Shown piece by piece: positions 3,092-55,003 of a stretch of DNA of 64,000 bases. Every line of letters starts with the position of its first letter. Position 1 is the first letter of the stretch. The notes beneath the pieces were generated by a model. It ran no database searches and had not been told where the DNA came from. It saw nothing but the letters and a program-made list of their open reading frames with translations. The stretch comes from a candidate division WOR-3 bacterium (GTDB lineage Bacteria; Hydrothermota; UBA3072): assembly GCA_023131835.1 (NCBI GenBank), contig JAGLZA010000024.1, positions 2,377-66,376 on the forward strand, in the 5' to 3' direction. The translations under genes were made by a program, and so were the position numbers.

Positions 3092-6000
3092 CTATTTATA
3101 CTCATAATCCGCTCCTCTATCTTCCTCTTTTTCGCCATATCCAAATTCTTCAGCAGCAATTCCAAAAATCTTTACTACTGCATAGATATAGATAATCACT
3201 GCCATAATTACCAGCAATAAACCTGCAAACTCGAACTCCAGGAGAGCTTCGGATATGTAACACTGGTAGCCGAGCATAAGGAATATTGTGGGTGAAATAA
3301 ACAACATAACTATATCCATATAGAAATCATACCCTACTTCTAACAAACCCAGCACCAAAAAAATAAATGCTAGCACTACAAAAATCCCAAATATCATACT
3401 TGTTCCTATCATTTCGTTCTCCTCAATTAATTGTTTATTTTGGTTATATATAAAGGTTAGTTGTTCTAATATATCTCCATACTCTTCCTCACCAATTGTT
3501 ACAGTCCACGTGACCGTGTTTGAAGTTCCGTTTGTGTTCGTCCCATAGACAGAGACGGTTTTCGTGCCATTTGATGTCCAATTTAAAGTTATGTTATCAT
3601 AATTATGATTTTGATCTATCCCATCCTTTTTCCAAGTCCATGTAATTATGGTTTGGTCTGCTACTGCACTAAAGTTTATTGCTGCTTGAGAAAGATTAAC
3701 TTGAAAACTTATTACACCGTCACCCGTAATGTTATTGTACCACGAAGTAATTGAAGGAGCAGCTACCGATTCGGTTAGTGTGATATTCTGATTGGTTTTA
3801 TCCACCCCGTTTACTGTTACTGTCGTTGAATTTGGTATGTATCCATCCTTGGTTGCGGTTAGAAGATAAGTATCGTTTGCTATACCTTCCAGTTTGTAAT
3901 ATCCTGTTGCATCAGTGTTATCATTTACGCCTGTTAGATTGTTCGTTACATGTGCCGTTTGAAGCGGTGCTCCCGTTGTATTTATCACGTAACCGCTAAT
4001 ATTATAAGTAACAAGAGGAACACCAATTTCAAATGTACCTGTTACCCAACTACTAAATTCGTAATTATCTTTTGTTCTTACTTGAACATAATAAGTTATT
4101 CCTTCACTTAAACCTGAACCAGCATAAGTTGCTGATGTAGCTGAGCTTGCTACTTGTCCGCTGTTCCACATATCGCTTGCACCCACATCTAACCCTACAT
4201 AAACCTGATAATGAGATTGTGTATCTCCTTCATCATCGGAATATGTCCACGAAAAATCGGGAGTATAATCACTTATGTCTGTTGGATTAGTTTGTCCTTC
4301 TGTCAAAAGGTTTGTTGTCATAGGTTCACTATTCATTCTAAATTCATCAGCAGTAGTATAATTACTCCACAATGAACCATCATAACTTCTCAATCTGTAA
4401 TAATAGGTTGTTCCGTCGGAAAGGGGTATAGTATTGCCCAAATTACATGTCTCACTTGTTGTATGCGTTTCGTTATCAGTCGGAGTGCTGGTTGTTCCTA
4501 CATAAACATAAGTTGTAACGGTATCACCATCTGCATCTGTACCTTTAGTCCATGTAATAGTTGGTGTGTGGTCAGTTAGATTCATACCTAAATCAGTCCA
4601 TCCTGTTGGTACGGTAGGTGCATTATTAGGTATCTGTGTGTTCTGTGAAATAAATGAAGATAAATTCCCAGTAGTAGCGTTATATCCAGCAACTGATATG
4701 TTACTCCATACGTGAGGCAATAAACCCGTATTATTGTAATATGTATTTGATGAGTCATTTGTCCAGCTATTATTTACTGAAACATTAAAAGTATCTGTAT
4801 TTATTCCTGTGTCCCAAGTATGATTTATCCAAAAATTACCAGTTGTATTTTGAAGGTTAGTTGGTGTCCCAGGTTCCGCACCACTTACCGTTATAGTCAT
4901 AGTGTAATTATCATAGCTACCATAACCGTCTGATACACCAAAATCAACATAATAAATACCTTCTACCGAAGTCCAGTTGCCTATCCCTGTTACAGTAGAA
5001 AAATCTGTAAACAAATCAGTTCTATTACATGAGAATGTTGGGGTATCGCTATCAGTATCTGTAGCATCATAATCTACATAAACATTTTGAGTTTTAAATC
5101 CAGTCCAATCTGAAATATTTGTTATTGTTATTGGATTGTTTGGTATTTGAACATTGTCCGATACATTTCCAGAACTTAATGTTCCGTTATCGCTGGAATT
5201 AAATGCCCATACACTGATATTAGACCACCCGTGTGGACTCATCCCAGAGCCATTGTAAAATGTATTTGTAGTGTTGTACCATGAATTGTTTACAGAAACA
5301 TTATAACTATCCGTTACGTAACCATCACTTCCATTATCCCATGTGTGATTAACATAAAAATTACCTGTAGTGTTCTGGAGATTTATCGGATCAGGTGGTG
5401 TAAATATTAATACAGTAACATTACTATAAGTTGGTGTTGTTGCATTAAAATAATGTGTTGTGTTGTAAAATCTAACAGTGTAATTATAAATACCTGCTGT
5501 ACTTTCGTTCCACGTAAAATTAACATAATCAACAACAGAAGAATTAGTACTTATAATATTTCCATCTTCTAATAGGTCTGCTAAACCGTAGAACGTGTCA
5601 CTATATTCCTCTATTAGACTTGCATTGATAAAGAAATCAACATTCTTACCAACGGATTGAGTACCATTACTATCCATAGTTGCAGTATTGTTTCTTTTCG
5701 TTATCTCATAATAAAATGAAGATGTGTCGTTATTAGCACTTGGAGTACTAGAATTTAAGTAGATTGTCACAGAAACATTAGTAACTGGTGAACCTACATT
5801 GTGTGATTCATTTGCCCATTCATCAAGGGTCAGATTCAAGTTTCCGAAACTTTTATTAGTAAATTCTGCATTAGTAAAATTCATCCAGACATTTGAGGCG
5901 TTGGCTACAGTTACATCTGCTGAAAAGTTTGAACTCCAATCTTGCCCCCAATCTTGTTTAACATTGGAGACGTTGCCTATTGTTAGAACAGGTGGTAAAA

Positions 6001-9000
6001 CTGTTACATTACTATAGTTCGAGGTTGTGACATTATTATAATGTGTTAGATTATAAAAACGAACTGTATAGTTATAAGTACCGACTGAACTTTCATTCCA
6101 TGTAAAGTTAACATAGTCAATAATTGATGAATTAGTTGAGATGACTGATCCATCCTCTAATAAATCCGCTGCACCGTAAAAGGTATCACCATACTCTTCT
6201 ATTAGACTCGCATTAATAAAGAAATCTCGATAGATTCCTATGTTTTGCGTAGCATTACTATCCATAGTAGCAGTGTTATTTCGTTTTGTAATTTCATAGT
6301 AAAACGATACCGTACCATTAATACTGCCAGGAGTACTCGAATTTAGAGAAACATTTACTGAGATATTAATAATGGGTGATTCGATATTATGTGACTCATT
6401 TACCCATTCATCAATAGAAGTATTAAGCCATCCTAAGCTGGTATTTGTAAAGTTATTATGTGAAAAATTCATCCAGGTATCTTTAGCATTTTGTCCAAGA
6501 ACATGGGCACTGAAATTTGAGTTCCAGTCTTGACCCCAGTCTTTTTTTATATTTTGCTCACCACTGATAGTGAGCGAAAGTGTAGGTGGATTAATTGTAA
6601 AATTAACATCTAACCATGTTATTGTACTAACACCTTCATCATCAGTAGCGTTTACTTGTAGTGTGAAATTATCAACTTCAGAATAGTAAGAAGAACTATC
6701 AAATGATATATTAATAAACATATTATCTCTCATAGTATCATTAAAAGTATTATTTATGATTGCAACAAAAGTTCTGTTTCCGTAGTGTAAAGTGAGGTTG
6801 TGTGATACATCTCCATCATCTGGATCTGATGCCAGTGCAATTCCAATATCAAAAGTCCCTGAATATGTATGATTCATCTCTAGATCTTTCTCGTCTTGGT
6901 AATAAAAATAAACAATACCAGGCTTTGTGGGTGGAAAGTAAGCCTTCTCTATATCAGTTGTATTTATTGTACTGTTTGTCCATGTTCCAACATTATCAGC
7001 AATATAAAGTTGATGTTTGAACTGATGTCCTCTATGTCTGTCTGAAACAAATGCATTTGTTGTATATAGATTCTCAATTAAAGGAGCATTATCACCTATC
7101 CAAGTTACATTACATTCACCAAAGGTACGGTTTGTTGAGGTAGGATCATTTGTCATATTCAAAGAATAAGGTTTCGATTGGGATGTTTCTGTATTAAAGC
7201 ATACCCACGCAGTGTTTGTTGTATTAATACCAGCATCTACAATAGCTGATTGATTTATGCTAAATGCTTTGATATAAGATGAATTTCTAACATTATATAA
7301 ATAATCAACCCATGTACTTGCATTATGTTCAGTTACAAAGAATCCATAAGGTGAATCTTCTGGATTTACAGAACCTTCTGGATCATAGCTACTATTTAGA
7401 TAATATAAAAAGATAGGCTTACTTGGCACACTTCCACCAAAATGAGTATCTAAGTAGAAGTTAAAAAGATAATCATGGTGATCATAGAATGTCTCTAAAT
7501 TCCATATTTTAATACAAGGTCTGCTACTCTTATGAATATCTAAATTCGTCATTGTAGCATTTTGTTGCTCTTCTCTATTTAGATACCACATATTTATAGA
7601 TGCAGTATCTCTTATAGTTCCATTCCAGTGGATTAAGGTATATGTGGAGTTTACAGGTTCAATAGTTAGTCTTGTAGTATTCTCATCTCCACCTCCCCAT
7701 TCATATACGTTTCCTCTTGTAATAGTTGCATTATCTTCAAAATTTAGTGTATAATTTCGATTATCTGCTCTTAAAATGTGCTCTCCTATTATAAATTCTA
7801 ATGCACTACGGTTATTAGATGGAACTCGTATGGAGTGGTTATATGTACCATCTATTGGATTATAAACAGTATAGATAAATGAAACTGAAGTATTATTCAG
7901 ACCACCGCTACCATGACTAATACCATAAGTAATATTCAAATTTCCAGTTGAATTTTGGTATAAAATAGAAGGGTCTTGTGATAGGAGGGTTATTGTGGGT
8001 GGCGGGATAGTTACATTACTATAAGTCGGTGTCGTGGCATTAAAATAGTAAGTGGTGTTATAGAATCTTACTGTATAATTGTACTGTCCAGCAGTACTTT
8101 CGTTATGTGTAAAATTTACATAATCAGTAACAGTGGAATTTGTTAGAACTACTGCTCCGTCTTCAAGTAAATCAGCAGCTCCGTAGAATGTATCCGAGTA
8201 TTCTTCATTAAGAGTAGCGTTGATAAAGAAGTCTTGATCAGTGTATGACATACTTTGTATAGCGGCACTATCCATTGTGGCTGTGTTGTTTCTCTTGGTA
8301 ATTTCATAAAAGAAGGTGTCACTATCATTTGCAGCTCCTAAAGCAGTTGATGTTAATTCCACAGTAACGGAAACATTAGTAACTGGAGCAGTGACATTAT
8401 GGGATTCATTTACCCATTCATCCAGAGTGCGATTTAACCATCCCAAACTTGTATTTGTAAATTCGGCATTGGTAAAGTTCATCCATACCTCGGATGCATT
8501 TGCCCCTGTTACATTAGCACTAAAATTGGAGTTCCAGTCACGCCCCCAATCTTCCTCATAGTTCTGAATGTTACCAGTTGTTAATGTTGGTCCTACAACA
8601 GTCACATTTGAATACCCAGAAGTAGTATTATCATAGTGAGTAAGATTATAAAACCTTACGGTATAATTGTAAACACCTACGGTGCTTTCGTTCCACGTGA
8701 AATTAACATAATCAACTATGGATGAATTAGTGGATATAGTTACGCCATCTTCTAAGAGATCCGCTGCACCATAGAATGTGTCTCCATACTCCTCATTACA
8801 AGTGGCATTAATATAGAAATTATCGTTTATACCTACGGTTTGCGTTGCAGAAGAATCCATCGTAGCGGTATTGGTTCGATTGGTTATCTCATAATAGAAG
8901 GTATCAGTATCGTTGGTTACTCCAACAGTGGTTGAATTAAGGTAAATTGTTACTGAGATGTTTGTTATTGGAGTATCAATATTATGTGATTCGTTCACCC

Positions 9001-10648
9001 ATTCATCTATAGTAAGATTTAAGTTACCTAAGCTGGTGTTTGTGAAGTCAGTATGAGTAAAGTTCATCCAAACATTTGAGGCATTGGCAACTGTAACATT
9101 TGCTGAGAAGTTTGAGCTGAAGTCTTGTCCCCAGTCGTGTTTATAGTTTTGGATGTTGGATGTTGTTAGGGTTGGTACTGCTGATGATTCTTCAGTGCCA
9201 GTGTAAGTGGTTGGCTCTGGCGAGGCGTATTTGCGGACGAGAACTTGATCCAAATAAGCAACATAAGTACTACCACCATATAGGCAGGAATAATAAAATT
9301 TATCGAATTGAATTAATGATTCATATAATACCTCTCCACCTGAAAGCTTGCTATCTCCATCCACCAGGATGTCATAATAAGTATCGTCCACTCCTGTTGC
9401 TTTTACCTCTATTTCATACCATTGATTTGCGGAAATACTTTGTAATAACGTCTCCCCACCATTTGTATAATAATATATTTGAGTACCTGCATTAAATAAA
9501 ATTCCAGCGTCTCCCTGCCCACCCGATTTAATATCTTCGCCCACATGGATACTTGAATATCCTGAAGTTCCCATTCTTGCCCAACACTTAAACGCTATCC
9601 CAGCGGTAATCGGAGAAAAGGAGTGATATGCATATAAACCCGGTGAGCCTGATTGTTGTCCTGTATCGTCAAGTTTCAAACTCTTCGTGCCGAATTTCGC
9701 GTAATCGTCCGAAACTCTTATGGTTCCTACATCATCATTACATGTCCAACCAGATGGGCAATTACCAACTGTTCCATCCTCAAAATCATCAAAGAACTCA
9801 AAGGTGTTGGTGCCGTTGGAGGCGGAACTCGCAGAAGGGTTGCCATAGTACATCTCCGTGGTGTCATTTGACCATCCCCCACCAGCGATGTAGGTGCCAT
9901 TGAACCACACCAAGCACCAGTTGCTGTCTGACTTGTCTTCGATCCAATACGCCTCCTCCGTGCCAGCGGATACATTCACAAAGCGCAAATCGTCAAAATC
10001 CACCTGCATATCTGCATCATAGGTGACATTGAGTGACACCTGATAATGCGACAGAGCGGAGCCACCCGTGTTATTGATACAGACGGGGGCTTTCTTTGTC
10101 CAGGTGGCGTTCCACCATGTCAATTCAGATCCCTCAATCCCTCCAAACATCGGAATGGTCTGAATAGAAAAAGCACCAATCTCTGCCTTCTTATGAAACA
10201 CCAGCTTTAAATTATACACTTCATTAGTTTTTATAGTTTTTCCATGTGGGTTGAATTGTTTCCAATGATACTTTGTTTCCTCATTTTGATTAATTATAAT
10301 ATTATAAGGTTTTTCAACAAACCATTCTACATAATCAATACTATTTCTGCCTTTATGCTTTATCCACCGTGTTTTGAAGTCACTTGAATCATTAAATGTG
10401 TAATCAACATAAGACGTGAACGTATAATATTCTGTAAAAGTTGTTAAGCCAGATTCTGTTTTAGTTAGTTGTATCTTAGTTTCAAGTTTATCGCGAAATA
10501 TAAAATTATCCTTATAGATAGATATGGTCTTTGATTCGGGATTAAATTGTTTATAGTGTGTGGTATCGCTAAATATACCTGCTTGGACAGGCGAAATTAG
10601 CAAAAATGCTATAAGTGCAATTATCCCGATTGCTATTATTTTTCTCAT
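3092..10648 (-). CDS. Giant (2518 aa) secreted, heavily N-glycosylated surface/adhesin-like protein with internal repeats and a multi-TM C-terminal anchor.
   Basis: Signal peptide MRKIIAIGIIALIAFLLISPVQA. NxS/T sequons are very dense. Four copies of a ~196-aa repeat are present. Further domains are FN3/PKD-like (NxTW...FNVSVNNSW), a CarbopepD_reg-like segment (GYVINTTGAPL...TDATGYYKLEG) and an acidic calcium-site-like stretch. The C-terminus has several hydrophobic helices. Confidence 0.85.
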   Translation of the reverse strand: MRKIIAIGIIALIAFLLISPVQAGIFSDTTHYKQFNPESKTISIYKDNFIFRDKLETKIQLTKTESGLTTFTEYYTFTSYVDYTFNDSSDFKTRWIKHKGRNSIDYVEWFVEKPYNIIINQNEETKYHWKQFNPHGKTIKTNEVYNLKLVFHKKAEIGAFSIQTIPMFGGIEGSELTWWNATWTKKAPVCINNTGGSALSHYQVSLNVTYDADMQVDFDDLRFVNVSAGTEEAYWIEDKSDSNWCLVWFNGTYIAGGGWSNDTTEMYYGNPSASSASNGTNTFEFFDDFEDGTVGNCPSGWTCNDDVGTIRVSDDYAKFGTKSLKLDDTGQQSGSPGLYAYHSFSPITAGIAFKCWARMGTSGYSSIHVGEDIKSGGQGDAGILFNAGTQIYYYTNGGETLLQSISANQWYEIEVKATGVDDTYYDILVDGDSKLSGGEVLYESLIQFDKFYYSCLYGGSTYVAYLDQVLVRKYASPEPTTYTGTEESSAVPTLTTSNIQNYKHDWGQDFSSNFSANVTVANASNVWMNFTHTDFTNTSLGNLNLTIDEWVNESHNIDTPITNISVTIYLNSTTVGVTNDTDTFYYEITNRTNTATMDSSATQTVGINDNFYINATCNEEYGDTFYGAADLLEDGVTISTNSSIVDYVNFTWNESTVGVYNYTVRFYNLTHYDNTTSGYSNVTVVGPTLTTGNIQNYEEDWGRDWNSNFSANVTGANASEVWMNFTNAEFTNTSLGWLNRTLDEWVNESHNVTAPVTNVSVTVELTSTALGAANDSDTFFYEITKRNNTATMDSAAIQSMSYTDQDFFINATLNEEYSDTFYGAADLLEDGAVVLTNSTVTDYVNFTHNESTAGQYNYTVRFYNTTYYFNATTPTYSNVTIPPPTITLLSQDPSILYQNSTGNLNITYGISHGSGGLNNTSVSFIYTVYNPIDGTYNHSIRVPSNNRSALEFIIGEHILRADNRNYTLNFEDNATITRGNVYEWGGGDENTTRLTIEPVNSTYTLIHWNGTIRDTASINMWYLNREEQQNATMTNLDIHKSSRPCIKIWNLETFYDHHDYLFNFYLDTHFGGSVPSKPIFLYYLNSSYDPEGSVNPEDSPYGFFVTEHNASTWVDYLYNVRNSSYIKAFSINQSAIVDAGINTTNTAWVCFNTETSQSKPYSLNMTNDPTSTNRTFGECNVTWIGDNAPLIENLYTTNAFVSDRHRGHQFKHQLYIADNVGTWTNSTINTTDIEKAYFPPTKPGIVYFYYQDEKDLEMNHTYSGTFDIGIALASDPDDGDVSHNLTLHYGNRTFVAIINNTFNDTMRDNMFINISFDSSSYYSEVDNFTLQVNATDDEGVSTITWLDVNFTINPPTLSLTISGEQNIKKDWGQDWNSNFSAHVLGQNAKDTWMNFSHNNFTNTSLGWLNTSIDEWVNESHNIESPIINISVNVSLNSSTPGSINGTVSFYYEITKRNNTATMDSNATQNIGIYRDFFINASLIEEYGDTFYGAADLLEDGSVISTNSSIIDYVNFTWNESSVGTYNYTVRFYNLTHYNNVTTSNYSNVTVLPPVLTIGNVSNVKQDWGQDWSSNFSADVTVANASNVWMNFTNAEFTNKSFGNLNLTLDEWANESHNVGSPVTNVSVTIYLNSSTPSANNDTSSFYYEITKRNNTATMDSNGTQSVGKNVDFFINASLIEEYSDTFYGLADLLEDGNIISTNSSVVDYVNFTWNESTAGIYNYTVRFYNTTHYFNATTPTYSNVTVLIFTPPDPINLQNTTGNFYVNHTWDNGSDGYVTDSYNVSVNNSWYNTTNTFYNGSGMSPHGWSNISVWAFNSSDNGTLSSGNVSDNVQIPNNPITITNISDWTGFKTQNVYVDYDATDTDSDTPTFSCNRTDLFTDFSTVTGIGNWTSVEGIYYVDFGVSDGYGSYDNYTMTITVSGAEPGTPTNLQNTTGNFWINHTWDTGINTDTFNVSVNNSWTNDSSNTYYNNTGLLPHVWSNISVAGYNATTGNLSSFISQNTQIPNNAPTVPTGWTDLGMNLTDHTPTITWTKGTDADGDTVTTYVYVGTTSTPTDNETHTTSETCNLGNTIPLSDGTTYYYRLRSYDGSLWSNYTTADEFRMNSEPMTTNLLTEGQTNPTDISDYTPDFSWTYSDDEGDTQSHYQVYVGLDVGASDMWNSGQVASSATSATYAGSGLSEGITYYVQVRTKDNYEFSSWVTGTFEIGVPLVTYNISGYVINTTGAPLQTAHVTNNLTGVNDNTDATGYYKLEGIANDTYLLTATKDGYIPNSTTVTVNGVDKTNQNITLTESVAAPSITSWYNNITGDGVISFQVNLSQAAINFSAVADQTIITWTWKKDGIDQNHNYDNITLNWTSNGTKTVSVYGTNTNGTSNTVTWTVTIGEEEYGDILEQLTFIYNQNKQLIEENEMIGTSMIFGIFVVLAFIFLVLGLLEVGYDFYMDIVMLFISPTIFLMLGYQCYISEALLEFEFAGLLLVIMAVIIYIYAVVKIFGIAAEEFGYGEKEEDRGADYEYK
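5400..6580 (-). repeat. Second tandem pair (copies 3-4) of the same ~590-bp coding repeat. Boundaries are approximate.
   Basis: Protein repeats ...NIKKDWGQDWNSNFSAHV... and ...NVKQDWGQDWSSNFSADV.... The offset from copies 1-2 is about 2.6 kb. Confidence 0.55.
8000..9180 (-). repeat. Tandem pair (copies 1-2) of a ~590-bp intragenic coding repeat in the 2518-aa gene. Boundaries are approximate, +/-60 bp.
   Basis: Protein repeats begin NIQNYKHDWGQDFSSNFSANVT... and NIQNYEEDWGRDWNSNFSANVT.... The antisense track ORFs 8316..8561 and 5799..6017 give similar translations, which confirms DNA-level repetition. Confidence 0.6.
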
Positions 10649-10651
10649 TTA

Positions 10652-10894
10652 TCATCGTGTGATCGCTACGAAAGTAAAAAGCACAATTATTACTATGATT
10701 ACTACTATTAATAGAGGGAGATTCGACATTATGCTGAATGCTCCTGTTGTTACATTTTTAGATGTCTCAAAGCTCTGACTAAGTGTAGGATCTTCACTTG
10801 CGTTTATACTAGAATTTGCACTGTCTATAAGGGTTGTAATTGAACTCATAGAAAAAAATATTAACATTGTAACCCCAATCAAGAGAAAAACCAT
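10652..10894 (-). CDS. Small (80 aa) two-TM membrane protein immediately upstream of the giant gene.
   Basis: Hydrophobic N- and C-terminal segments. The stop lies 4 nt before the giant gene's ATG. Confidence 0.45.
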   Translation of the reverse strand: MVFLLIGVTMLIFFSMSSITTLIDSANSSINASEDPTLSQSFETSKNVTTGAFSIMSNLPLLIVVIIVIIVLFTFVAITR

Positions 10895-13073: not shown

Positions 13074-13440
13074 AATGCTTGATGGAACGATTAAATAGTA
13101 GTTGGATACCTCCAAGGAAGTAGATTACCCAAATCCCCGTCTGCATTATCGCAACCAACGCAAGCGGCATCCCGAGCTTTTCGAATAGGATAGGAGCTAT
13201 CCAGACAATACCAAGCAAACCTCCTGTAATTAGCTGGAGTCCACTTACGAGCATCGATCCCATTGAGAACTGTTCATCATATTTTGTGATGTCTCCAGAG
13301 GGATCATAGCCTGTTAGTTTCTCTATTTCAGCTGTCTGGTCTTCTAAAGCAAGTTGTGTGGGGAACATCTCAAGAGAATCAACAAGTCCAATACAACTCG
13401 TCAACAAAATACAAAAAAGTGCAAGATCGTATGCCTTCAC
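13066..13440 (-). CDS. Small membrane protein (124 aa).
   Basis: N-terminal signal/TM and a C-terminal hydrophobic segment. Sits between the Vsr-like gene and the FN3-like gene. Confidence 0.45.
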   Translation of the reverse strand: MKAYDLALFCILLTSCIGLVDSLEMFPTQLALEDQTAEIEKLTGYDPSGDITKYDEQFSMGSMLVSGLQLITGGLLGIVWIAPILFEKLGMPLALVAIMQTGIWVIYFLGGIQLLFNRSIKHYE

Positions 13441-38890: not shown

Positions 38891-38895
38891 AGTTT

Positions 38896-38935
38896 GGGAG
38901 GGAGCTTTTTATTTCCCTCTCTTTTTTATTTTTTA
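38896..38935 (+). terminator. Hairpin plus T-tract terminator after the PEF-CTERM gene.
   Basis: GGGAGGGA, an 8-nt loop, then TCCCTCTC with one G:U pair, followed by TTTTTTATTTTTTAT. Confidence 0.45.
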
Positions 38936-38956
38936 TGTAATATTAGGAGGTAAAAA

Positions 38957-40383: not shown

Positions 40384-41766
40384 TTACCTACCCATTGCAT
40401 CTATAATTGCATCAAATAGAGGTAACATTATATAAAGTAGTATAAAGAGTCCTATTAACATTACGAATCCTATTAATATGGTTGTATAATTTATTTCCAT
40501 ACCACTTTTCATAGCAAATAGTACAACTAAAATAAGAGATGCCAAACTAACTATTGCTAAAATTCCCAAAAGTGTAAAAGAAACACCTAATGTATCAATA
40601 AACTCCTCTAAAGTACCAAACCTACTTAATAAGATGGTTACTGTACAATTACCTGTTGAACCATAATCATCACTAACATTAAATTGCCAATAGTATACAC
40701 CATCATCACCCGCTCCAGTTTGCCATTCAAACACACCTGTGTTTATATTAAGATTACCAAAGATAGCATTCGTAAAAAATGTACAAACATCACCATCTAA
40801 ATCTATATAACCAAAATCAAGCTCAACTATATCACCCATTACATCACCAACTATACCAGACCAATCGTTGCAATTAGTTATAGTTGGTGGGTTATTTGGT
40901 ATTTGAGTATTTTGAGACAATGGTAAAGATAATTCATCTAATGTTGAATTGTATCCATAAATAGATATGTTAGACCAACTATGAGGAGAAAGAAGAGTAT
41001 TATTATAAGAAGTATTAGTACTTCCATTATACCATGTATCATTTACGGTGACATTAAATGAATTAGTATTTATTCCAGAGTTCCACGTATGATTAATATA
41101 AAAATTACCTGATACATTTACTATATTTATTGGTATTCCTGGCGTTGCATCAATTATTGTTATTGTAAGTGTCTTGTTATCTTCGCTACCATACCCATCA
41201 CTAACACCGACATCTACATAATAGACACCTGAATCAGTAGTTCCCGTTGTCCAATTACCGTAACCTGTTGAAGTTGAAAAGTCCGTGAATAAATCCGTAC
41301 GGTTACACGAATAGGTAGGTGTATCACCATCCGCATCAGATGAAGATGTATCAGAGATAAATATCATCTTACCTTCCAATTCAGTGTATACCTGCGTTAC
41401 GGTTAGTAATACAACATTATTTGGTACCTGCTGCTGTCCATCTATAGATGTTACACTTAAATTACCAGTAGTTAAATTGAAAGCAAACACACTTATGTTT
41501 GCCCATTGATGAATACCTACACTATCATTCATGTATGTATTGGTGGTACCATTATGCCATGTTGAGTTCCAACTCACATTGAAGCTATCAGTACCATCCT
41601 CTTTATCCCAAGTCCAATTCACCCAGAAGTTGCCTGTTGATGCTGATAAGTTGGTGGGGGTAGTGGGATAGCTCCATGCACTACCTACGCAGAATATACT
41701 TAGCAAGACAATAACACCTAGTACCTTTATAGCACCTTTTAATTCTGTATTCTTTTTTAACAACAT
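40384..41766 (-). CDS. Secreted N-glycosylated FN3/PKD-like surface protein (460 aa), paralogous to a C-terminal segment of the 2518-aa protein. It has a C-terminal TM anchor.
   Basis: PTNLSASTGNFWVNWTWDKEDGTDSFNVSWNSTW and YSCNRTDLFTDFSTSTGYGNWTT...YYVDVGVSDGYGSEDN align to PTNLQNTTGNFWINHTWDTGINTDTFNVSVNNSW and FSCNRTDLFTDFSTVTGIGNW...YYVDFGVSDGYGSYDN in the giant protein. Confidence 0.75.
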   Translation of the reverse strand: MLLKKNTELKGAIKVLGVIVLLSIFCVGSAWSYPTTPTNLSASTGNFWVNWTWDKEDGTDSFNVSWNSTWHNGTTNTYMNDSVGIHQWANISVFAFNLTTGNLSVTSIDGQQQVPNNVVLLTVTQVYTELEGKMIFISDTSSSDADGDTPTYSCNRTDLFTDFSTSTGYGNWTTGTTDSGVYYVDVGVSDGYGSEDNKTLTITIIDATPGIPINIVNVSGNFYINHTWNSGINTNSFNVTVNDTWYNGSTNTSYNNTLLSPHSWSNISIYGYNSTLDELSLPLSQNTQIPNNPPTITNCNDWSGIVGDVMGDIVELDFGYIDLDGDVCTFFTNAIFGNLNINTGVFEWQTGAGDDGVYYWQFNVSDDYGSTGNCTVTILLSRFGTLEEFIDTLGVSFTLLGILAIVSLASLILVVLFAMKSGMEINYTTILIGFVMLIGLFILLYIMLPLFDAIIDAMGR

Positions 41767-41815: not shown

Positions 41816-42874
41816 TCAAAAACGCATAGGACATTTAATACAAGCCTCTGGTGGATTCTTTGTATTCATTCTTCTTCTCCATTCTACAAACTCCTTACTA
41901 TTCCAAATCCCCTCTAAAGATTGCTCAAATATGTTTCCCATAAAAATATTATGAACACCACAACATGGACGTACATCTCCTTTAGTGGTAATAGGTAGCA
42001 TATACCACGGTTGGTAACAAACTATTTTGTTACTCGGTAGTTCTAACGGAGGTAAACGTACATCTATGTTCAACTCTTTCCCAAGCTCTTTTGCCTCTCT
42101 GAAAATATCTTTAATTTCCTTTTTATCCTTTGTTTTTCTTATGGCATAGTTTTCTGCACTTTCTTTTCCAACCCAATAACTAACATCCGAAAACGCTATT
42201 CCATCCACACCCACTTCTTTAGCTAAACTAACTAAAGCTAGAACTTCATGTAAATTCTTACCTACCATTATTACAGGAACAAACTCAATCTTCAAATTGA
42301 CTCTTTCTTCTTTTCTCTTTTTACAAAGGTTCTTTATACCTTTAATTGTTTTCTCGAAATTAGCACCCACACGTATACCTTCATAGGTCTCTTTTGTTGC
42401 AGCATCAATAGATAGTGATAAATAATCCAAACCAGAATTTATTAATTCATTAACATTTTTGTTGTTAAATAGAGTCCCATTTGAAGTAAGTAAAACTTCT
42501 AGACCTTTTTCCTTGCTGTACTTTATTGCATCAAAAATATGTTTGTATAAAAGAGGCTCACCTAATCCTCCAGCTAATTGTATTGTAGTAGCATACTCAG
42601 ATACTTTGTCAATAATGTTTCTTACCTGTTTAAAATTAAGTTCATTTAATTCTATTGTCGGATCGGTAGTTCTTAAACACATAATGCATTTAAGGTTGCA
42701 ATTATCCGTTAGTGCTAGATCTATAAATCGAGGATATGATTTGAGTTTTGGTTTTTTGAAAAAAATCTCCACATCATTTAAAATATAGTTGCTAAATCTC
42801 TTTCCTCCATATTTTAACAGAATTTTTGGATATATAATCCAAATTCGGTTAAATACTTCCCAAATAGTTTTCAT
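41816..42874 (-). CDS. Radical SAM enzyme with a C-terminal SPASM/twitch-like Cys-rich domain.
   Basis: LTDNCNLKCIMC is the CxxxCxxC motif. The C-terminus has extra Cys residues: CYQPWY...RPCCGVHN...CIKCP. Confidence 0.7.
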   Translation of the reverse strand: MKTIWEVFNRIWIIYPKILLKYGGKRFSNYILNDVEIFFKKPKLKSYPRFIDLALTDNCNLKCIMCLRTTDPTIELNELNFKQVRNIIDKVSEYATTIQLAGGLGEPLLYKHIFDAIKYSKEKGLEVLLTSNGTLFNNKNVNELINSGLDYLSLSIDAATKETYEGIRVGANFEKTIKGIKNLCKKRKEERVNLKIEFVPVIMVGKNLHEVLALVSLAKEVGVDGIAFSDVSYWVGKESAENYAIRKTKDKKEIKDIFREAKELGKELNIDVRLPPLELPSNKIVCYQPWYMLPITTKGDVRPCCGVHNIFMGNIFEQSLEGIWNSKEFVEWRRRMNTKNPPEACIKCPMRF

Positions 42875-42877
42875 TTT

Positions 42878-43894
42878 TTATCTTCCTTTTATATTACTTA
42901 CTTTTTTAACAAGGACAAATTGACGAATACCACACCATTTAATTACTGGTAGATTAGAAGCTAATAACCTATCTGTTAATTCTAAACACTTACCAAACAT
43001 CTTATATGACGAATCCACACCCATTTTTTCTAAAAAAGAAAAGAAACGCCAAACTAACTTTGGAGAAGAACCATAGTACCATAACCTACTCTCATGCCGT
43101 TCTACTGAAAAACCAGTCTTTACAAGCCATCGTCTTAAAATACTAGGTTGTAAAGCAGGATGCCACTTAAGAGCTTCCTTCCAATATCTATGAGCGTTTA
43201 CTTCTTTATACCAAATAAAAGGTTTAACTAACACAGAAAATAAATTTGCAGGATAAAAATATATTGATACACACGGAGTTGATAACGAAAGATGTCCACC
43301 ATCCTTAAGAATCCTATTTATCTCTCGTAAATATCCGAAAGGGTCATCCAAATGTTCCAGTACCTCACTACTCAAAACAATATCAACTGAACCATCATGA
43401 AATGGAGTATCCTTTATCCCGTGGTGTACCAAAACTAAACGGAACTTTCTTTTAAAGTTTTGTTGGGCAATTACTAAGGATTCTTTGCTTAAATCTAATC
43501 CATAATAAGTATTGATTGTATCTGGGAATGAATTAATATAAGGAAGCTGTCCACATCCTAAATCAACAATAGTTGAATTTGAAATGTATGGAGAAAGGAG
43601 TTTTGTATGAAAATTAGGAAAATTAACACTATGTAACCTCGCTAAATATTCAACATTACTCTGTATGTATGAATTATAATATTTACGTTCATCCCTTAGC
43701 TTATATAAATCAAGAAGATTATCCCCTATTCTAAGATCAATCTCCTTATTTTTTTCTTCCATCAAAACTATACTATCCTCAATTGGATATGTTTGCATAC
43801 AATAATTACAGACAAATCCATCAGGTTGTTGAATCAGAATATTTCCACATCGTTTACAACACAATGCTATATTAAGGTTATTCATGTTTTTCAC
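42878..43894 (-). CDS. Class I SAM-dependent methyltransferase with an N-terminal Trm112-like zinc ribbon.
   Basis: CCKRCGN...CNYC. Motif I VDLGCGQLPY. DIVLSSEVLEHL. Confidence 0.65.
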   Translation of the reverse strand: MKNMNNLNIALCCKRCGNILIQQPDGFVCNYCMQTYPIEDSIVLMEEKNKEIDLRIGDNLLDLYKLRDERKYYNSYIQSNVEYLARLHSVNFPNFHTKLLSPYISNSTIVDLGCGQLPYINSFPDTINTYYGLDLSKESLVIAQQNFKRKFRLVLVHHGIKDTPFHDGSVDIVLSSEVLEHLDDPFGYLREINRILKDGGHLSLSTPCVSIYFYPANLFSVLVKPFIWYKEVNAHRYWKEALKWHPALQPSILRRWLVKTGFSVERHESRLWYYGSSPKLVWRFFSFLEKMGVDSSYKMFGKCLELTDRLLASNLPVIKWCGIRQFVLVKKVSNIKGR

Positions 43895-44637
43895 TTTTTC
43901 CTACAAACAAAATAATATCCTCCAACTTGAGACTTAAAAAGACAAGCTAAATAATTCATCACCTTAAATCCAATATTAAAACTGGAAAAAAATGTGTTCA
44001 TTATTGTAAGTGGAAAGAAAAACCCATCATACATTACTTTTTCCATCTGAAAACCACTTTTTCTTATTTTCTCTCTAATAATATCTTCCTTATAAAAATT
44101 AACGTGGTCAGTTATTTTTTGTATATATGGTTGAAATAGTCTATTCCGACATTGAGCCATAAAACATCCTTCATTTGGCACACCTAAGATTAGTATCCCT
44201 CTATTTCTTATACTGTTATAAAGATTATCTAAAACCTTATCATCCTCTTCTATATGCTCTAACACCTGACTACATAACACTATATCAAATTTATCTTTTA
44301 TATATAAGTTAGTTAAATCTCCCTTAAATATTTTTGCCTGTGGATACTCCATCTTTGCCCTTTCAACTCGTACAGGATTATAATCTACACCATAAATCTC
44401 CAATCCTTTTAATTTAGATAAGATATTTAGGTGAACACCATCACCACAACCAGCATCCAAAATTTTTAGCTGAATATCCTTTTTTTGACAAGTCTCTATA
44501 ACTGAAATAATAAAATCCCATCTTTTTTTAATGCTACGTTTGGTAGACTTATCAAATATCTGTTTCATCTGAGGGCTTACATACCATGAATTACCATTAT
44601 CTATCTTTTCTTTAATACCTTTTTTTATGTTAGTCAT
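43891..44637 (-). CDS. Class I SAM-dependent methyltransferase.
   Basis: LDAGCGDGVH. DIVLCSQVLEHIEE. Confidence 0.65.
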   Translation of the reverse strand: MTNIKKGIKEKIDNGNSWYVSPQMKQIFDKSTKRSIKKRWDFIISVIETCQKKDIQLKILDAGCGDGVHLNILSKLKGLEIYGVDYNPVRVERAKMEYPQAKIFKGDLTNLYIKDKFDIVLCSQVLEHIEEDDKVLDNLYNSIRNRGILILGVPNEGCFMAQCRNRLFQPYIQKITDHVNFYKEDIIREKIRKSGFQMEKVMYDGFFFPLTIMNTFFSSFNIGFKVMNYLACLFKSQVGGYYFVCRKK

Positions 44638-45850
44638 GTGTTAGTCCTATTATCAACCTATACAACTTCTCCTCTTTAATAAATATATTCTTCTCATCAT
44701 ATTTAAAACTTCTTTCTACGGACACCTTTGACATTTCTTTTATTTCCTTGTTCGAAAAACTTAGAAGTTTTTCGATACCTTTTTTAATACTATCAACACT
44801 ATATGGATCAACTATGATACCATTTTTTTTGTCAACAAATTGGGTAGGAACAGGATGATTCGATGTTAATATTGGCAATCCTGAAGCCATAGCCTCAACA
44901 AAAACCATACCAAAACCCTCATATAGTGTAGGAAATACAAAGAGATCAGAAATACTATAATAAAGGGGCAAATCTTTATATCCTACAATCCCAGTGAATA
45001 TTACGTGTTTTGATATTCCAAGCATATCAACATAGTTTTTATATCTTAATTTTTCTTCTTTCTTTCTAGTACCTCCAACCACAATTAGGATAGTACTAGC
45101 TTTTATTGATTCTGATAAACCAGCATAAGCTTTAAGTAACCTACCTAAATTTTTCTGTTTATCCCCATATCTACCCACAAATAAAAATACTCGTTTTCCA
45201 CTTATATTAAGTTTATTCTTTAACTTCTCAACCCTCTCTTGTTTAACATTCATATATTGCCTTAAATTTACAGGTTTTGGAACCGATACAATATTAGTAG
45301 ATTTTGCACCGTGTCTACGTGCATAATACTTCAAATAATCACTGATAGCAATTACCTTTAAAGCCTGTTGAATATTATAAGTCTCAATTATGTGTTTCTC
45401 AAGATACACTGCATAATTTGAATGTAATTTGTATCTTCTATCGTAATCATCATGTATAGATTGCACCACTGGAATACCTGTTATTTTCCCTAAAACAGTC
45501 CCTAAAAGTCCTATCTCATGCACATTGGAGTTTCTAATAATAGAAATATTAAATTTTTTAATGATACTTAATCCCACTCTTAAACCTAAAAATGGTTTTA
45601 AAAATAGGTTTTTTGTCCTTATAGGATGGAACATTAATGTGTTATGGTTTTTTAATACTGAATCCTCATCTCCCCACAATGATATAAGATGAACACAGCC
45701 AAACATTCTGTTAGGGTTGTATACCTTCTCTAGATAGTCAAGAGAATACCGCTTTATTCCTTTAGTAGTTTCTTTTATAGGATCATTTATGTAGCATAGT
45801 AATTGGTTATTACTTTTTGTCATTTTTTGGTTCTTCCTAATTTTTCCCAT
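44630..45850 (-). CDS. GT4-family (GT-B) glycosyltransferase.
   Basis: C-terminal EX7E motif EGFGMVFVEAMASGLPIL. Confidence 0.7.
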   Translation of the reverse strand: MGKIRKNQKMTKSNNQLLCYINDPIKETTKGIKRYSLDYLEKVYNPNRMFGCVHLISLWGDEDSVLKNHNTLMFHPIRTKNLFLKPFLGLRVGLSIIKKFNISIIRNSNVHEIGLLGTVLGKITGIPVVQSIHDDYDRRYKLHSNYAVYLEKHIIETYNIQQALKVIAISDYLKYYARRHGAKSTNIVSVPKPVNLRQYMNVKQERVEKLKNKLNISGKRVFLFVGRYGDKQKNLGRLLKAYAGLSESIKASTILIVVGGTRKKEEKLRYKNYVDMLGISKHVIFTGIVGYKDLPLYYSISDLFVFPTLYEGFGMVFVEAMASGLPILTSNHPVPTQFVDKKNGIIVDPYSVDSIKKGIEKLLSFSNKEIKEMSKVSVERSFKYDEKNIFIKEEKLYRLIIGLTHD

Positions 45851-48266: not shown

Positions 48267-48268
48267 TG

Positions 48269-50871: not shown

Positions 50872-50891
50872 TTTTCTTTTTCCTCCTTATT

Positions 50892-52445: not shown

Positions 52446-52462
52446 TTTCTATACTTTTCCAC

Positions 52463-53989: not shown

Positions 53990-53998
53990 TTTTACTAC

Positions 53999-54967: not shown

Positions 54968-55003
54968 GTATTTATAATTATCCTTTGATTACTTAGAATC
55001 CAG

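What the first reader, a model, noticed from the sequence alone, without database searches (positions are those of the whole stretch)
3092..10648. 2518-aa hyper-sequon surface protein built from four ~196-aa repeats plus FN3-like and CarbopepD_reg-like modules
The gene is 7.6 kb. By eye it has NxS/T sequons at well over one per 15 residues. Two tandem pairs of a ~590-bp repeat lie at about 9180-8000 and about 6580-5400. FN3/PKD-like NxTW...FNVSVNNSW modules are shared with the gene at 40384. The C-terminus has several TM helices. This is probably a major glycosylated S-layer or adhesin-like protein, or a virion fibre. The repeat pairs are substrates for recombinational length variation.
Basis: seen in the sequence. 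Interest (0 to 1): 0.55.

Follow-up and report, generated by a model that had tools for sequence, protein, structure and literature searches.

The report
Giant glycan-coated archaeal surface protein
This is a real 2518-residue, membrane-anchored, stalk-and-head surface protein with about 158 N-glycosylation sites, encoded on a very large, uncharacterised archaeal mobile element from a methane seep that also carries its own glycosylation enzyme and sugar-synthesis genes. It is an interesting but not unprecedented kind of protein.

Summary
ORF 3092-10648 (-) encodes 2518 aa with 158 NxS/T sequons (57±6 expected), four 195-196-aa repeats in two tandem pairs, a module cassette shared with gene 40384, a signal peptide and three C-terminal TM helices.

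Each repeat is predicted to be two Ig-like β-sandwiches (pLDDT 94.8). The repeats are old: synonymous sites are saturated and no exact match between copies exceeds 17 nt. They are therefore poor recombination substrates today. Relatives nevertheless carry 1-5 units, and R4 has no ortholog in the closest homolog.

The protein is a mosaic. It has a DUF2341 + ConA-like head and a 474-aa middle module that is a stand-alone gene elsewhere. Its FN3-like/Ig cassette is shared with giant ANME surface proteins. It ends in Ig_Rha78A_N, CarboxypepD_reg and PKD-like modules and a 3-TM anchor.

The same element is at least about 190 kb, has about 34% GC and codes on one strand. It encodes an archaeal AglB oligosaccharyltransferase just beyond the window, a roughly 30-kb glycan cluster and an archaeosortase.

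Best reading: a glycan-shielded adhesin-like stalk displayed on an ANME-type host and glycosylated by element-encoded machinery. No S-layer or virion-fibre signature was found. It is a new member of a known kind, of moderate interest.

The parts
3092..10648 (-). Whole gene: 2518-aa hyper-sequon modular surface protein.
   Evidence: ORF list and translation. An identical protein, P0001, occurs in an ENA assembly.
10580..10648 (-). Sec-type signal peptide, aa 1-23 (MRK, hydrophobic core, VQA|G).
   Evidence: Hydropathy scan. It is 82% conserved in P0002 although the head that follows is unrelated.
10079..10579 (-). N-terminal module of unknown fold, aa 24-190. Lys-rich, only 2 sequons, GC 0.33.
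   Evidence: No Pfam hit above threshold. Partial matches to P0015 and P0009 only.
9746..10078 (-). DUF2341 domain, aa 191-301. This is a GC-rich patch (GC 0.50, GC3 0.60).
   Evidence: PF10102, 53.7 bits against a cut-off of 23.4. GC per module.
9176..9745 (-). ConA-like (LamG/GH16/CBM66-type) β-jelly-roll, aa 302-491. It has no sequons and is the presumed ligand-binding head.
   Evidence: A profile of 54 homologs against PDB matched GH16 β-glucanase (E = 1e-3), levanase CBM66 (5e-3) and neurexin LNS (0.02). No sequons. The GH16 catalytic motif is not aligned.
8003..9175 (-). Repeat pair R1 (aa 492-686) and R2 (aa 687-882). Each unit is two Ig-like β-sandwiches, with 19 sequons per unit.
6581..8002 (-). 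Middle module, aa 883-1356. All-β, 31 sequons, no Pfam family. Elsewhere it is a stand-alone 574-817-aa secreted, TM-anchored protein.
5405..6580 (-). Repeat pair R3 (aa 1357-1552) and R4 (aa 1553-1748). R4 has no ortholog in P0002.
4613..5404 (-). Cassette of an 'FN3-like' module, an Ig-like module and a second 'FN3-like' module, aa 1749-2012. It is shared with gene 40384 and with giant ANME surface proteins.
   Evidence: 56% identity to g40384. 58-63% identity to P0004 and P0005, with the Ig part at 74-81%. The FN3 fold is not demonstrated.
4013..4612 (-). Two Ig_Rha78A_N-type domains, aa 2013-2212. The second has no sequons.
   Evidence: PF25788, 71.2 bits, for aa 2112-2209. Weak hit, 16.8 bits, for aa 2013-2108.
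3764..4012 (-). CarboxypepD_reg domain, aa 2213-2295.
   Evidence: PF13620, 45.6 bits against a cut-off of 32.3.
3464..3763 (-). PKD-like β-sandwich, aa 2296-2395. The match is below threshold.
   Evidence: PKD 16.3 bits against a cut-off of 23.5.
3095..3463 (-). Membrane-proximal linker, three TM helices and an acidic cytoplasmic tail, aa 2396-2518.
   Evidence: Hydropathy scan. The tail is conserved in P0002 (60%), P0089 (64%), P0093, P0094 and P0095.
10652..10894 (-). 80-aa two-TM ORF. Its stop codon (TGA) lies 3 nt before the ATG of the big gene. It is a possible membrane partner.
   Evidence: Sequence. Nearly identical in L002, although the big proteins are only 70% identical.
40384..41766 (-). 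460-aa paralogous surface glycoprotein with 24 sequons, a signal peptide and two C-terminal TM helices. It carries the same FN3-like/Ig cassette.
41816..63487 (-). Glycan biosynthesis cluster, functionally linked by inference. It contains four GT4 glycosyltransferases, a Wzx/MATE-type flippase, a 10-TM ORF, two epimerase/dehydratases, a DegT aminotransferase, five methyltransferases, four radical-SAM proteins (two of them B12-binding) and a FemAB-like protein. It continues beyond the window to AglB.

Best explanation
The gene encodes a Sec-exported surface protein that stays in the membrane through three C-terminal helices. It projects a rod of about 20 β-sandwich domains, roughly 70-95 nm if extended. 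At the tip are an N-terminal module of unknown fold and a DUF2341 + ConA-like jelly-roll unit.

The stalk carries about 158 N-glycosylation sequons. The ConA-like part of the head has none. The stalk is therefore predicted to be glycan-sheathed, which would make it resistant to proteases and stiff, while the tip is left bare for ligand binding, probably of a carbohydrate.

The gene sits on a giant element: at least about 190 kb, about 34% GC, coding on one strand, mostly ORFans. The element's host is an archaeon, most likely an ANME methanotroph. The element also encodes an archaeal AglB oligosaccharyltransferase, a roughly 30-kb glycan-assembly cluster, an archaeosortase and several other hyper-sequon proteins.

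The most likely mechanism is that the element re-dresses its host's surface with its own glycoproteins and glycan. This protein would be the long-reach adhesin or recognition component.

Shown: the ORF, the repeats, the sequon excess and its conservation, the domain matches, the predicted folds of the repeat and middle module, the mosaic family, and AglB on the same contig.

Inferred: actual glycosylation, the topology, the length, the ligand, the host, and the biological role.
For: - Export and anchoring: signal peptide and three TM helices.
- Sequon excess: 158 against 57 ± 6 expected and 70 for the reversed motif. 15 of 26 sequon columns are conserved in all four repeats. 84 of 90 sequons are shared with the 85%-identical stretch of P0002.
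- Archaeal type of sequon: only 8 of 158 have D/E at position -2, so this is not the bacterial PglB-type extended sequon.
- Domains: the repeat is two Ig-like sandwiches at pLDDT 94.8. The middle module is all-β.
- Head: DUF2341 plus a ConA-like domain with no sequons. The head is swapped for a different head with a Laminin_G_3 domain in the syntenic ortholog P0002, and the relative P0095 has a cohesin head, while signal peptide, stalk and anchor are kept.
- Glycosylation machinery: AglB (TIGR04154, 760 bits against a cut-off of 450, WWDYG motif) lies on a contig identical to window 52141-64000 and 6-8 kb beyond the window end, at the head of the glycan cluster. A second related element has an epimerase and AglB directly upstream of the paralog P0095.
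- Glycan cluster inside the window.
- Host link: the cassette at aa 1749-2007 is 58-81% identical to giant DUF2341 proteins of an ANME-2c chromosome and of an ANME-1-binned contig.
- Precedent: Borg elements of Methanoperedens are reported to devote many genes to glycosyltransferases, glycoconjugates and cell-surface proteins (PMC9605863; bioRxiv 10.1101/2024.11.05.622173).
Against: - There is no experimental evidence of expression, glycosylation or localisation.
- The host is not established. NCBI files the contig under a 'candidate division WOR-3 bacterium' MAG.
- The ConA-like assignment rests on E values of about 1e-3.
- The ligand is unknown, and DUF2341 has no characterised function.
- Only two of the modules were modelled. 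The domain count and the length are extrapolated.
- The glycan cluster could serve a polysaccharide or lipid glycan and not protein N-glycans.
- Three TM helices with few basic residues give an uncertain topology.
Confidence: 0.6

Rival explanations
1. It is the attachment or fusion spike of an enveloped particle made by the element, either a virion or a plasmid-vesicle-like carrier. In this reading it is inserted in the host membrane, glycosylated by the element's own AglB, and carried out on budding particles.
For: - The gene lies on a large ORFan-rich element that codes on one strand and carries many homing-endonuclease-like genes.
- It is membrane-anchored and hyper-glycosylatable.
- Its distal head is swapped between strains in the way receptor-binding proteins are.
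- Pleolipovirus spikes and the pR1SE vesicle coat proteins are membrane-anchored N-glycoproteins (PMC10384203).
- One ORFan gives a weak match to a 'virion structural protein' PHROG, E = 8e-4.
Against: - No capsid, portal, terminase or known spike homolog was found in the window or its flanks.
- Nothing was found in IMG/VR or in GenBank phage and archaeal-virus records.
- BFVD TM-scores are at most 0.20.
- At 2518 aa it is far larger than known archaeal spikes (stated from general knowledge).
- The module cassette is shared with chromosomal ANME surface proteins.
Confidence: 0.12
2. It is a lattice-forming S-layer (or sheath) glycoprotein that replaces or supplements the host's envelope protein.
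For: - It is secreted, acidic (279 D+E against 102 K+R) and sequon-rich, like archaeal S-layer glycoproteins.
- CarboxypepD_reg is related to PEGA-type domains, which are annotated as S-layer proteins in Borgs.
Against: - No S-layer Pfam or NCBIfam family matches.
- The stalk-and-head build, the 2518-aa length, the 3-TM anchor and the variable head are atypical for lattice proteins.
- Module number and order vary widely among relatives, which is hard to reconcile with a conserved lattice.
Confidence: 0.1
3. It is a mucin-like glycocalyx or scaffold protein with no specific ligand. Its job would be bulk glycan display, for protection, hydration or masking of viral receptors, or docking of other proteins.
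For: - Sequon density reaches 10 per 100 aa across about 1500 aa.
- The element encodes several other hyper-sequon proteins.
- Relatives carry cohesin heads, which are protein-docking modules (ANME cohesin/dockerin proteins in PMC9012536).
Against: - The stalk is made of folded Ig-like domains under strong purifying selection (dN/dS about 0.08-0.09), not disordered mucin repeats.
- A conserved, sequon-free lectin-type head argues for specific binding.
Confidence: 0.1
4. It is a bacterial (WOR-3) cell-surface protein, and the NxS/T richness is a compositional by-product with no glycosylation.
For: NCBI annotates the identical proteins as 'candidate division WOR-3 bacterium', MCK4526xxx. DUF2341 proteins are common in bacteria.
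Against: - The same contig encodes an archaeal-type AglB, TIGR04154, 760 bits.
- The sequon excess survives composition shuffling and the reversed-motif control.
- Sequons lack the bacterial D/E at position -2.
- Modules are 58-81% identical to ANME proteins.
- The contig shows the pattern of a mobile element: all genes on one strand, ORFans and homing-endonuclease-like genes. Such elements are easily mis-binned.
Confidence: 0.04

Closest known systems
Cell-surface and PEGA/S-layer-like glycoprotein plus glycan-cluster regions of Borg extrachromosomal elements of Methanoperedens (PMC9605863; bioRxiv 10.1101/2024.11.05.622173)
   Same: Both are giant archaeal elements with about 33% GC, genes on one strand and mostly hypothetical proteins. 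Both have a perfect in-frame tandem repeat, here (VTPP)x10, and heavy investment in glycosyltransferases, nucleotide-sugar enzymes and signal-peptide or TM surface proteins near each other.
   Different: This element comes from a marine cold-seep sediment. Its module sharing points to ANME-2c or ANME-1, not Methanoperedens. Only one perfect repeat array was found in 64 kb. No alignment to a known Borg was possible with these tools. The Borg paper searched does not mention AglB, STT3 or archaeosortase, whereas this element has both.
Giant chromosomal DUF2341/LamG surface proteins of ANME archaea (P0004, 3935 aa, Ca. Methanomarinus/ANME-2c contig; P0005, 2479 aa, Methanophagaceae MAG) and the modular extracellular cohesin/dockerin proteins of ANME (PMC9012536)
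   Same: They share the DUF2341 head type, the FN3-like/Ig cassette (58-81% identity), a similar sequon density (5.0-5.5 per 100 aa) and the same logic of variable module combinations.
   Different: Those proteins are chromosomal, at 42-43% GC. They lack the 196-aa repeat and the 3-TM tail, and only P0004 has a weak (33%) match to part of the 474-aa middle module.
Archaeal N-glycosylated S-layer glycoproteins (for example Haloferax volcanii csg, PDB 7ptp)
   Same: Both are secreted, acidic, Ig-like multi-domain proteins that are substrates of AglB.
Membrane-anchored N-glycosylated spike proteins of pleolipoviruses and coat proteins of haloarchaeal plasmid vesicles (PMC10384203)
   Same: All are glycoproteins encoded by a mobile element and inserted in the host membrane.
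   Different: Those proteins depend on the host's glycosylation machinery. This element carries its own AglB and glycan cluster. There is no sequence or fold similarity, and this protein is far larger (size comparison from general knowledge).
Bacterial giant Ig-repeat adhesins (Bap/SiiE/LapA-type), named from general knowledge only
   Same: Both have a long rod of tandem Ig-like domains presenting a distal binding module, with repeat number varying between relatives.
   Different: Those are bacterial and not N-glycosylated, use T1SS or sortase anchoring, and typically have near-identical repeats. Here the repeats are 64-73% identical and ancient.

Membership tests
DUF2341 (PF10102) proteins | Pfam match above the gathering score. 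| tested here: met
   53.7 bits against 23.4, aa 217-301. 188 homologs of the head were found.
Concanavalin A-like lectin / LamG superfamily | Sequence or profile match to LamG, GH16 or CBM66-type jelly-roll domains. | tested here: inconclusive
   Pfam Laminin_G_3 does not hit the focal protein. A profile of 54 homologs hits GH16 β-glucanase (E = 1e-3), CBM66 (5e-3) and neurexin LNS (0.02).
CarboxypepD_reg (PF13620) | Pfam match above the gathering score. | tested here: met
   45.6 bits against 32.3, aa 2217-2292.
Ig_Rha78A_N (PF25788) | Pfam match above the gathering score. | tested here: met
   71.2 bits against 27.4, aa 2112-2209. A second copy upstream scores only 16.8 bits.
Fibronectin type III (PF00041) | Sequence or profile match to FN3. 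| tested here: not met
   No Pfam hit for aa 1749-1838 or 1926-2012. A 17-sequence profile found no FN3 chain in PDB at E < 0.1. hhalign against human FN3-10 gave probability 1%. A structural test was not possible.
PKD domain (PF00801) | Pfam match above the gathering score. | tested here: not met
   16.3 bits against 23.5 for aa 2296-2395. The resemblance is below threshold only.
AglB-dependent archaeal N-glycoproteins | Exported protein with NxS/T sequons in excess of chance. | tested here: met
   158 sequons against 57 ± 6 expected, with a signal peptide. The sequons are conserved in paralogous repeats and in the ortholog.
AglB-dependent archaeal N-glycoproteins | An archaeal oligosaccharyltransferase is available in the same genetic system. 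| tested here: met
   AglB matches TIGR04154 with 760 bits against a cut-off of 450 and has the WWDYG motif. It lies on L010, which is identical to window 52141-64000.
AglB-dependent archaeal N-glycoproteins | Glycans are actually attached to the Asn residues. | not testable with these tools
   This needs glycoproteomics.
Archaeal S-layer proteins | Match to an S-layer family or domain. | tested here: not met
Archaeal S-layer proteins | Forms a 2-D lattice and is a dominant envelope protein. | not testable with these tools
   This needs cryo-ET or proteomics.
Archaeosortase substrates (PGF-, PEF- or VPXXXP-CTERM) | C-terminal motif, a single TM helix and a basic cluster at the extreme C-terminus. 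| tested here: not met
   The tail is three TM helices followed by an acidic end...EEDRGADYEYK. By contrast the neighbour 38138-38890 ends ...SPEFSTIMMACLIGLLSISAILLRKKKE.
Phage or archaeal-virus tail fibre or virion proteins | Sequence or fold similarity to known virion proteins. | tested here: not met
   Only two unknown-function PHROG hits with no aligned stretch. tblastn against phage records found nothing. IMG/VR found nothing. BFVD TM-scores are at most 0.20.
Borg extrachromosomal elements (context of the gene) | [quoted passage not shown] | tested here: met
   The window has GC 0.341. 40 of 43 ORFs of at least 150 aa are on the minus strand. The criteria come from PMC9605863.
Borg extrachromosomal elements (context of the gene) | Pervasive perfect tandem repeats of three or more units. 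| tested here: inconclusive
   One perfect array of 12 bp x 10.2 was found at 26341-26463. The other arrays are imperfect or have fewer than three units.
Borg extrachromosomal elements (context of the gene) | Alignment to known Borg genomes or backbone genes, and best hits to Methanoperedens. | not tested
   No Borg reference set is available in the tools. The module sharing that was found is with ANME-2c and ANME-1 proteins.

The most novel reading that the evidence does not exclude
The protein is the host-recognition spike of a self-contained glycoprotein display system on a giant (at least about 190 kb) Borg-like or virus-like element of marine ANME archaea. In this reading the element brings its own AglB, its own glycan pathway, its own archaeosortase and a combinatorial family of hyper-sequon proteins. 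It uses them to build a glycan-shielded envelope on particles, on vesicles or on the converted host cell. That would be an archaeal counterpart of the glycan shields of eukaryotic enveloped viruses, with the glycosylation enzyme supplied by the element and not by the host.
Probability: 0.12. Interest if true: 0.8.

Novelty: new member of a known kind. Interest (0 to 1): 0.45.

Why it matters
Anaerobic methane oxidation in seeps depends on cell-to-cell contact in ANME consortia. The proteins that shape ANME surfaces are almost unknown.

This locus shows a large mobile element that carries substrates, glycan synthesis genes, an oligosaccharyltransferase and a sorting enzyme together. If these are expressed, the element could rewrite the host's surface. 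That could affect adhesion, partner recognition and susceptibility to viruses.

The locus also gives two well-defined new extracellular modules: a double-Ig 196-aa unit and a 474-aa all-β module. Both are restricted to a few dozen proteins in billions. It is also a clean example of Lego-like shuffling of surface modules between host chromosomes and mobile elements.

The protein itself is of a familiar type, a giant Ig-repeat surface glycoprotein. The surprise lies in its genomic context more than in the gene.

Tried and rejected
- IMG/VR scan with the whole protein: no relative.
- tblastn of the focal protein, the 1211-aa ORF and a NUMOD3 ORF against 50,697 phage and archaeal-virus records: no match.
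- PHROGs on 10 large ORFs and on 29 ORFans: nothing informative. The hits were an Ig-domain match to a 'major tail protein' family, one weak 'virion structural protein' match at E = 8e-4, and one homing endonuclease.
- Pfam on the 29 ORFans: only three marginal hits.
- GTDB genome scan with the middle-module profile: one partial hit on a 10.9-kb contig of a 'Bacteroidales' MAG, which is uninformative.
- PDB sequence search with the whole protein: nothing below E = 0.03.
- Test of the 'FN3' label by Pfam, profile against PDB, and hhalign: negative.
- Search for a recent donor of the GC-rich DUF2341 patch: the best match in that search was 70% over 30% of the query, and P0093 from the repeat search matches the DUF2341 domain at 79%, so no near-identical donor.
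- The head is only about 31% identical to the ANME proteins. The high-identity match to them is the FN3-like/Ig cassette, not the head.
- Rfam and tRNA scans of the window: nothing.
- Promoter and terminator scan: no enrichment. The scan uses a bacterial consensus and is not relevant to archaea.
- Recent tandem duplication as the origin of the repeats: rejected, because dS is saturated.
- A bacterial PglB-type sequon: rejected, because only 8 of 158 sequons have D/E at position -2.
Full report
**1. The observation**

The region 3092-10648 holds one uninterrupted minus-strand ORF of 2518 codons. It has 158 NxS/T sequons. That is 1 per 15.9 residues overall and 1 per about 11 in aa 492-2012. 1000 shuffles of the same residues give 57 ± 6, with a maximum of 77. 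The reversed motif [ST]xN occurs only 70 times. Other ORFs in the window that look cytoplasmic have 0-1 sequons per 100 aa. Only four other ORFs are enriched: 14694-19259, 38138-38890, 40384-41766 and 12351-13115.

At the protein level these are R1 (aa 492-686), R2 (687-882), R3 (1357-1552) and R4 (1553-1748), which are 64-73% identical.

The product of gene 40384-41766 shares a 263-aa cassette at 56% identity.

A hydropathy scan gives an N-terminal signal peptide ending VQA|G and three C-terminal TM helices followed by an acidic tail.

Pfam confirms CarboxypepD_reg and adds DUF2341 and Ig_Rha78A_N.

The 'FN3-like' label could not be verified by sequence.

An assembly artefact is unlikely. An independent ENA contig differs at 4 of 20,648 positions. 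A 70%-identical homolog from another sediment layer keeps the same junctions. The repeat copies never share more than 17 identical bases in a row.

**2. Anatomy**

From the N-terminus the protein consists of:
- the signal peptide;
- a 167-aa module of unknown fold;
- DUF2341;
- a roughly 190-aa domain which, as a 54-sequence profile, weakly matches ConA-like jelly-rolls: GH16 β-glucanase at E = 1e-3, levanase CBM66 at 5e-3 and neurexin LNS at 0.02, without the GH16 catalytic motif;
- R1 and R2;
- a 474-aa middle module;
- R3 and R4;
- a cassette of FN3-like, Ig-like and FN3-like modules;
- two Ig_Rha78A_N domains;
- CarboxypepD_reg;
- a PKD-like domain that scores below threshold;
- the 3-TM tail.

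Sequons are concentrated on the stalk at 6.5-12 per 100 aa. They are absent from the ConA-like head, from the second Rha78A domain and from the TM tail.

The protein is strongly acidic, with 279 D+E against 102 K+R.

With about 20 β-sandwich domains an extended length of roughly 70-95 nm is expected. This is an inference from typical Ig-domain dimensions.

**3. Evolution of the repeats and of the family**

Synonymous sites between repeat copies are saturated: dS is above 2.4 or undefined. dN is 0.20-0.29 and dN/dS is about 0.08-0.09. 15 of 26 sequon columns are conserved in all four copies. The copies are therefore old and under purifying selection. They are poor substrates for homologous recombination now.

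An exhaustive HMMER search of 1.84 billion representative proteins finds the unit in only 40 proteins, at 1-5 copies each.

The closest homolog, P0002, has orthologs of R1 (88%), R2 (84%), the middle module (87%) and R3 (79%). It has none of R4. It has a different head with a Laminin_G_3 domain and no DUF2341, three cassette modules where the focal protein has two, and no Rha78A domains.

The middle module is a family of its own. There are 22 homologs, mostly stand-alone 574-817-aa proteins with a signal peptide and a C-terminal TM helix, and no Pfam family.

In locus L004 two separate genes lie next to each other: a DUF2341 head with three R units and a TM anchor (P0090), and a signal-peptide, FN3-like, middle-module, TM protein (P0067). 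The focal gene thus looks like a mosaic of modules that are independent elsewhere. Module number and order differ in nearly every relative, and all of them are sequon-rich at 3-9 per 100 aa.

**4. Genomic context**

The window has 34% GC. 40 of its 43 ORFs of at least 150 aa are on the minus strand, and most of its ORFs have no family.

It contains at least five paralogous genes that combine a ROS/MucR-type zinc finger, a NUMOD3 motif and a DUF968/HNH-like region. It contains a perfect (VTPP)x10 tandem repeat inside a 1211-aa ORF.

It holds a glycan cluster from 41816 to the window end. The cluster has four GT4 enzymes, a flippase, two epimerases, DegT, methyltransferases, radical-SAM/B12 enzymes and a FemAB-like protein.

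It also holds a plus-strand island with an archaeosortase-family gene (TIGR04178, 46.9 bits against a cut-off of 23) next to a small hyper-sequon protein that ends in a PEF-CTERM-like signal.

The window's proteins are identical to proteins on a 180,060-bp ENA scaffold. The fetched piece, L010, is identical to window 52141-64000 and continues 9.5 kb beyond it. In that extension the glycan cluster is headed by an archaeal AglB (803 aa, TIGR04154 at 760 bits against a cut-off of 450, WWDYG motif, GC 0.357). AglB is followed by a nucleotide-sugar dehydrogenase, a DegT-type aminotransferase, a GFO/IDH/MocA oxidoreductase, a hexapeptide acetyltransferase, a second dehydrogenase and an Asn-synthase-like amidotransferase. 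From general knowledge, this set resembles the WbpABDE route to 2,3-diacetamido-uronic acids, which occur in methanogen N-glycans.

A second related contig, L008, has an epimerase and AglB immediately upstream of the paralog P0095.

By coordinate arithmetic the scaffold starts near window position 12,600. With the window and the L001 flank, the element is at least about 190-200 kb.

The samples are deep layers of a South China Sea Site-F cold-seep core, including RS_15 and RS_18 (PMC9357000).

**5. Host**

NCBI files these proteins under a 'candidate division WOR-3 bacterium' MAG. This is probably a binning error, for three reasons. The AglB is of the archaeal, archaeosortase-associated subfamily. 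The sequons lack the bacterial D/E at position -2: only 8 of 158 have it. The cassette at aa 1749-2007 is 58-63% identical (its Ig part 74-81%) to giant DUF2341 proteins on a chromosomal contig of Ca. Methanomarinus (ANME-2c) and on a contig binned as Methanophagaceae (ANME-1).

The host is therefore most likely an ANME archaeon, but this is an inference.

The element meets the compositional Borg criteria of low GC and one-strand coding. It has only one perfect repeat array in 64 kb, and it could not be aligned to known Borgs.

**6. Mechanism (best explanation, confidence about 0.6)**

The protein is exported by Sec. Its sequons are glycosylated on the outer face by AglB, plausibly the element's own enzyme using a glycan built by the adjacent cluster. 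It stays anchored by three helices and presents a bare lectin-type head at the end of a glycan-sheathed rod.

The head is replaced by unrelated modules at the same position in syntenic relatives, while signal peptide, stalk and anchor persist. That is the signature of a recognition or adhesion protein.

An 80-aa two-TM ORF ends 3 nt before the start codon and is almost invariant between elements. It may be a membrane partner.

The rivals are weaker:
- spike of an enveloped particle or vesicle (0.12);
- S-layer lattice protein (0.10);
- non-specific glycocalyx or scaffold (0.10);
- bacterial protein with incidental sequons (0.04).

**7. Comparison and novelty**

Functionally the protein resembles the surface-decoration gene sets described for Borgs (PMC9605863; bioRxiv 10.1101/2024.11.05.622173) and the modular extracellular proteins of ANME (PMC9012536).

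Structurally it resembles giant Ig-repeat adhesins.

It differs from pleolipovirus spikes and plasmid-vesicle coat proteins. Those rely on host glycosylation (PMC10384203), whereas here the oligosaccharyltransferase is on the element.

The protein is a new member of a known kind. The repeat unit and the middle module are new, narrowly distributed families.

The context is the more unusual part: AglB, a glycan pathway, an archaeosortase and several hyper-sequon substrates together on one giant marine archaeal element.

**8. Verdict**

Interest is 0.45.

Noticed in passing
L010:1079-3490 (about 6-8.4 kb beyond the window's right end, same strand as the focal gene): The element encodes an archaeal AglB oligosaccharyltransferase (803 aa, TIGR04154 at 760 bits, WWDYG motif, GC 0.357). 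It heads the glycan cluster. It is followed by WbpABDE-like genes (a nucleotide-sugar dehydrogenase, DegT, a GFO/IDH/MocA oxidoreductase, a hexapeptide acetyltransferase, a second dehydrogenase) and an Asn-synthase-like amidotransferase. A related element (L008:1764-4163) also has AglB, directly upstream of a paralog of the focal protein.
   Followed up: yes
window 38138-40154 (+): On the only plus-strand island, ORF 39231-40154 is an exosortase/archaeosortase-family protein (TIGR04178, 46.9 bits against a cut-off of 23; nearest subfamily ArtB, below its cut-off). Its upstream neighbour 38138-38890 has a signal peptide, a Big_7 Ig domain and 20 sequons in 250 aa. It ends '...SPEFSTIMMACLIGLLSISAILLRKKKE', a PEF-CTERM-like sorting signal. 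The same tail is seen in P0068.
   Followed up: partly
window 9746-10108 (aa 181-300 of the focal gene): The DUF2341 segment has GC 0.49-0.53 and GC3 0.60, against about 0.33 and 0.2-0.3 in the rest of the gene. This suggests that this module was acquired fairly recently from a higher-GC genome. No near-identical donor was found; the closest match is P0093 at 79% identity over the DUF2341 domain.
   Followed up: partly
window 2262-3083, 10908-11774, 13437-14654, 33117-34094, 36052-37005 (all -): These are five paralogous genes that combine a ROS/MucR-type zinc finger, NUMOD3 motifs and a DUF968/HNH-like C-terminus. They look like homing endonucleases. Two of them flank the focal gene, and their presence differs between the window and the syntenic locus L002.
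   Followed up: partly
window 26341-26463 (inside ORF 26139-29774, -): A perfect 12-bp tandem repeat of 10.2 copies encodes (VTPP)x10 in a 1211-aa basic, Pro/Lys-rich ORFan that also has an NTase-like 'HDIDIEV' motif. Perfect in-frame repeats of this kind are a hallmark of Borg elements.
   Followed up: partly
window 10652-10894 (-): An 80-aa two-TM ORF has its stop codon 3 nt before the ATG of the focal gene. It is almost identical in L002, although the big proteins are only 70% identical. It may be a conserved membrane partner.
   Followed up: partly
whole window; NCBI proteins MCK4526002-MCK4526059 (locus tags KAW18_01420 and onward): The contig is deposited in a MAG labelled 'candidate division WOR-3 bacterium'. 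The archaeal AglB, the archaeal type of sequon and the ANME-like modules indicate that a mobile element was mis-binned. The same sequence lies on a 180,060-bp ENA scaffold, so the element is at least about 190 kb.
   Followed up: partly
window 14694-19259 (-), 12351-13115 (-): These are further exported sequon-rich proteins. One is 1521 aa with 47 sequons and a CarboxypepD_reg domain. The other is 254 aa with 7 sequons and TM helices. The element encodes a whole set of putative surface glycoproteins.
   Followed up: no
window 52463-53989 (-) and 53999-54967 (-): Inside the glycan cluster there is a 508-aa ORF with about 10 TM helices and a 322-aa ORF with a signal anchor. Neither has a Pfam or NCBIfam family. 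They may be a novel polymerase, a GT-C-type transferase or another glycan-processing protein.
   Followed up: no
L003:17670-18740: A related element carries a reverse transcriptase (RVT_1) gene two genes upstream of a CarboxypepD_reg surface protein. It could belong to a group II intron or to a diversity-generating retroelement.
   Followed up: no
window 11434-11532: There is an imperfect 36-bp tandem repeat (2.8 copies, 73% matches) inside the NUMOD3 gene 10908-11774.
   Followed up: no
L004 (GC 0.46) compared with the window, L001-L003 and L009 (GC 0.34-0.37): Related contigs have the same kind of genes: NUMOD3 genes, one-strand coding and surface glycoproteins of this family. Their GC content differs by about 10 points, so this element family spans a wide compositional range.
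   Followed up: no
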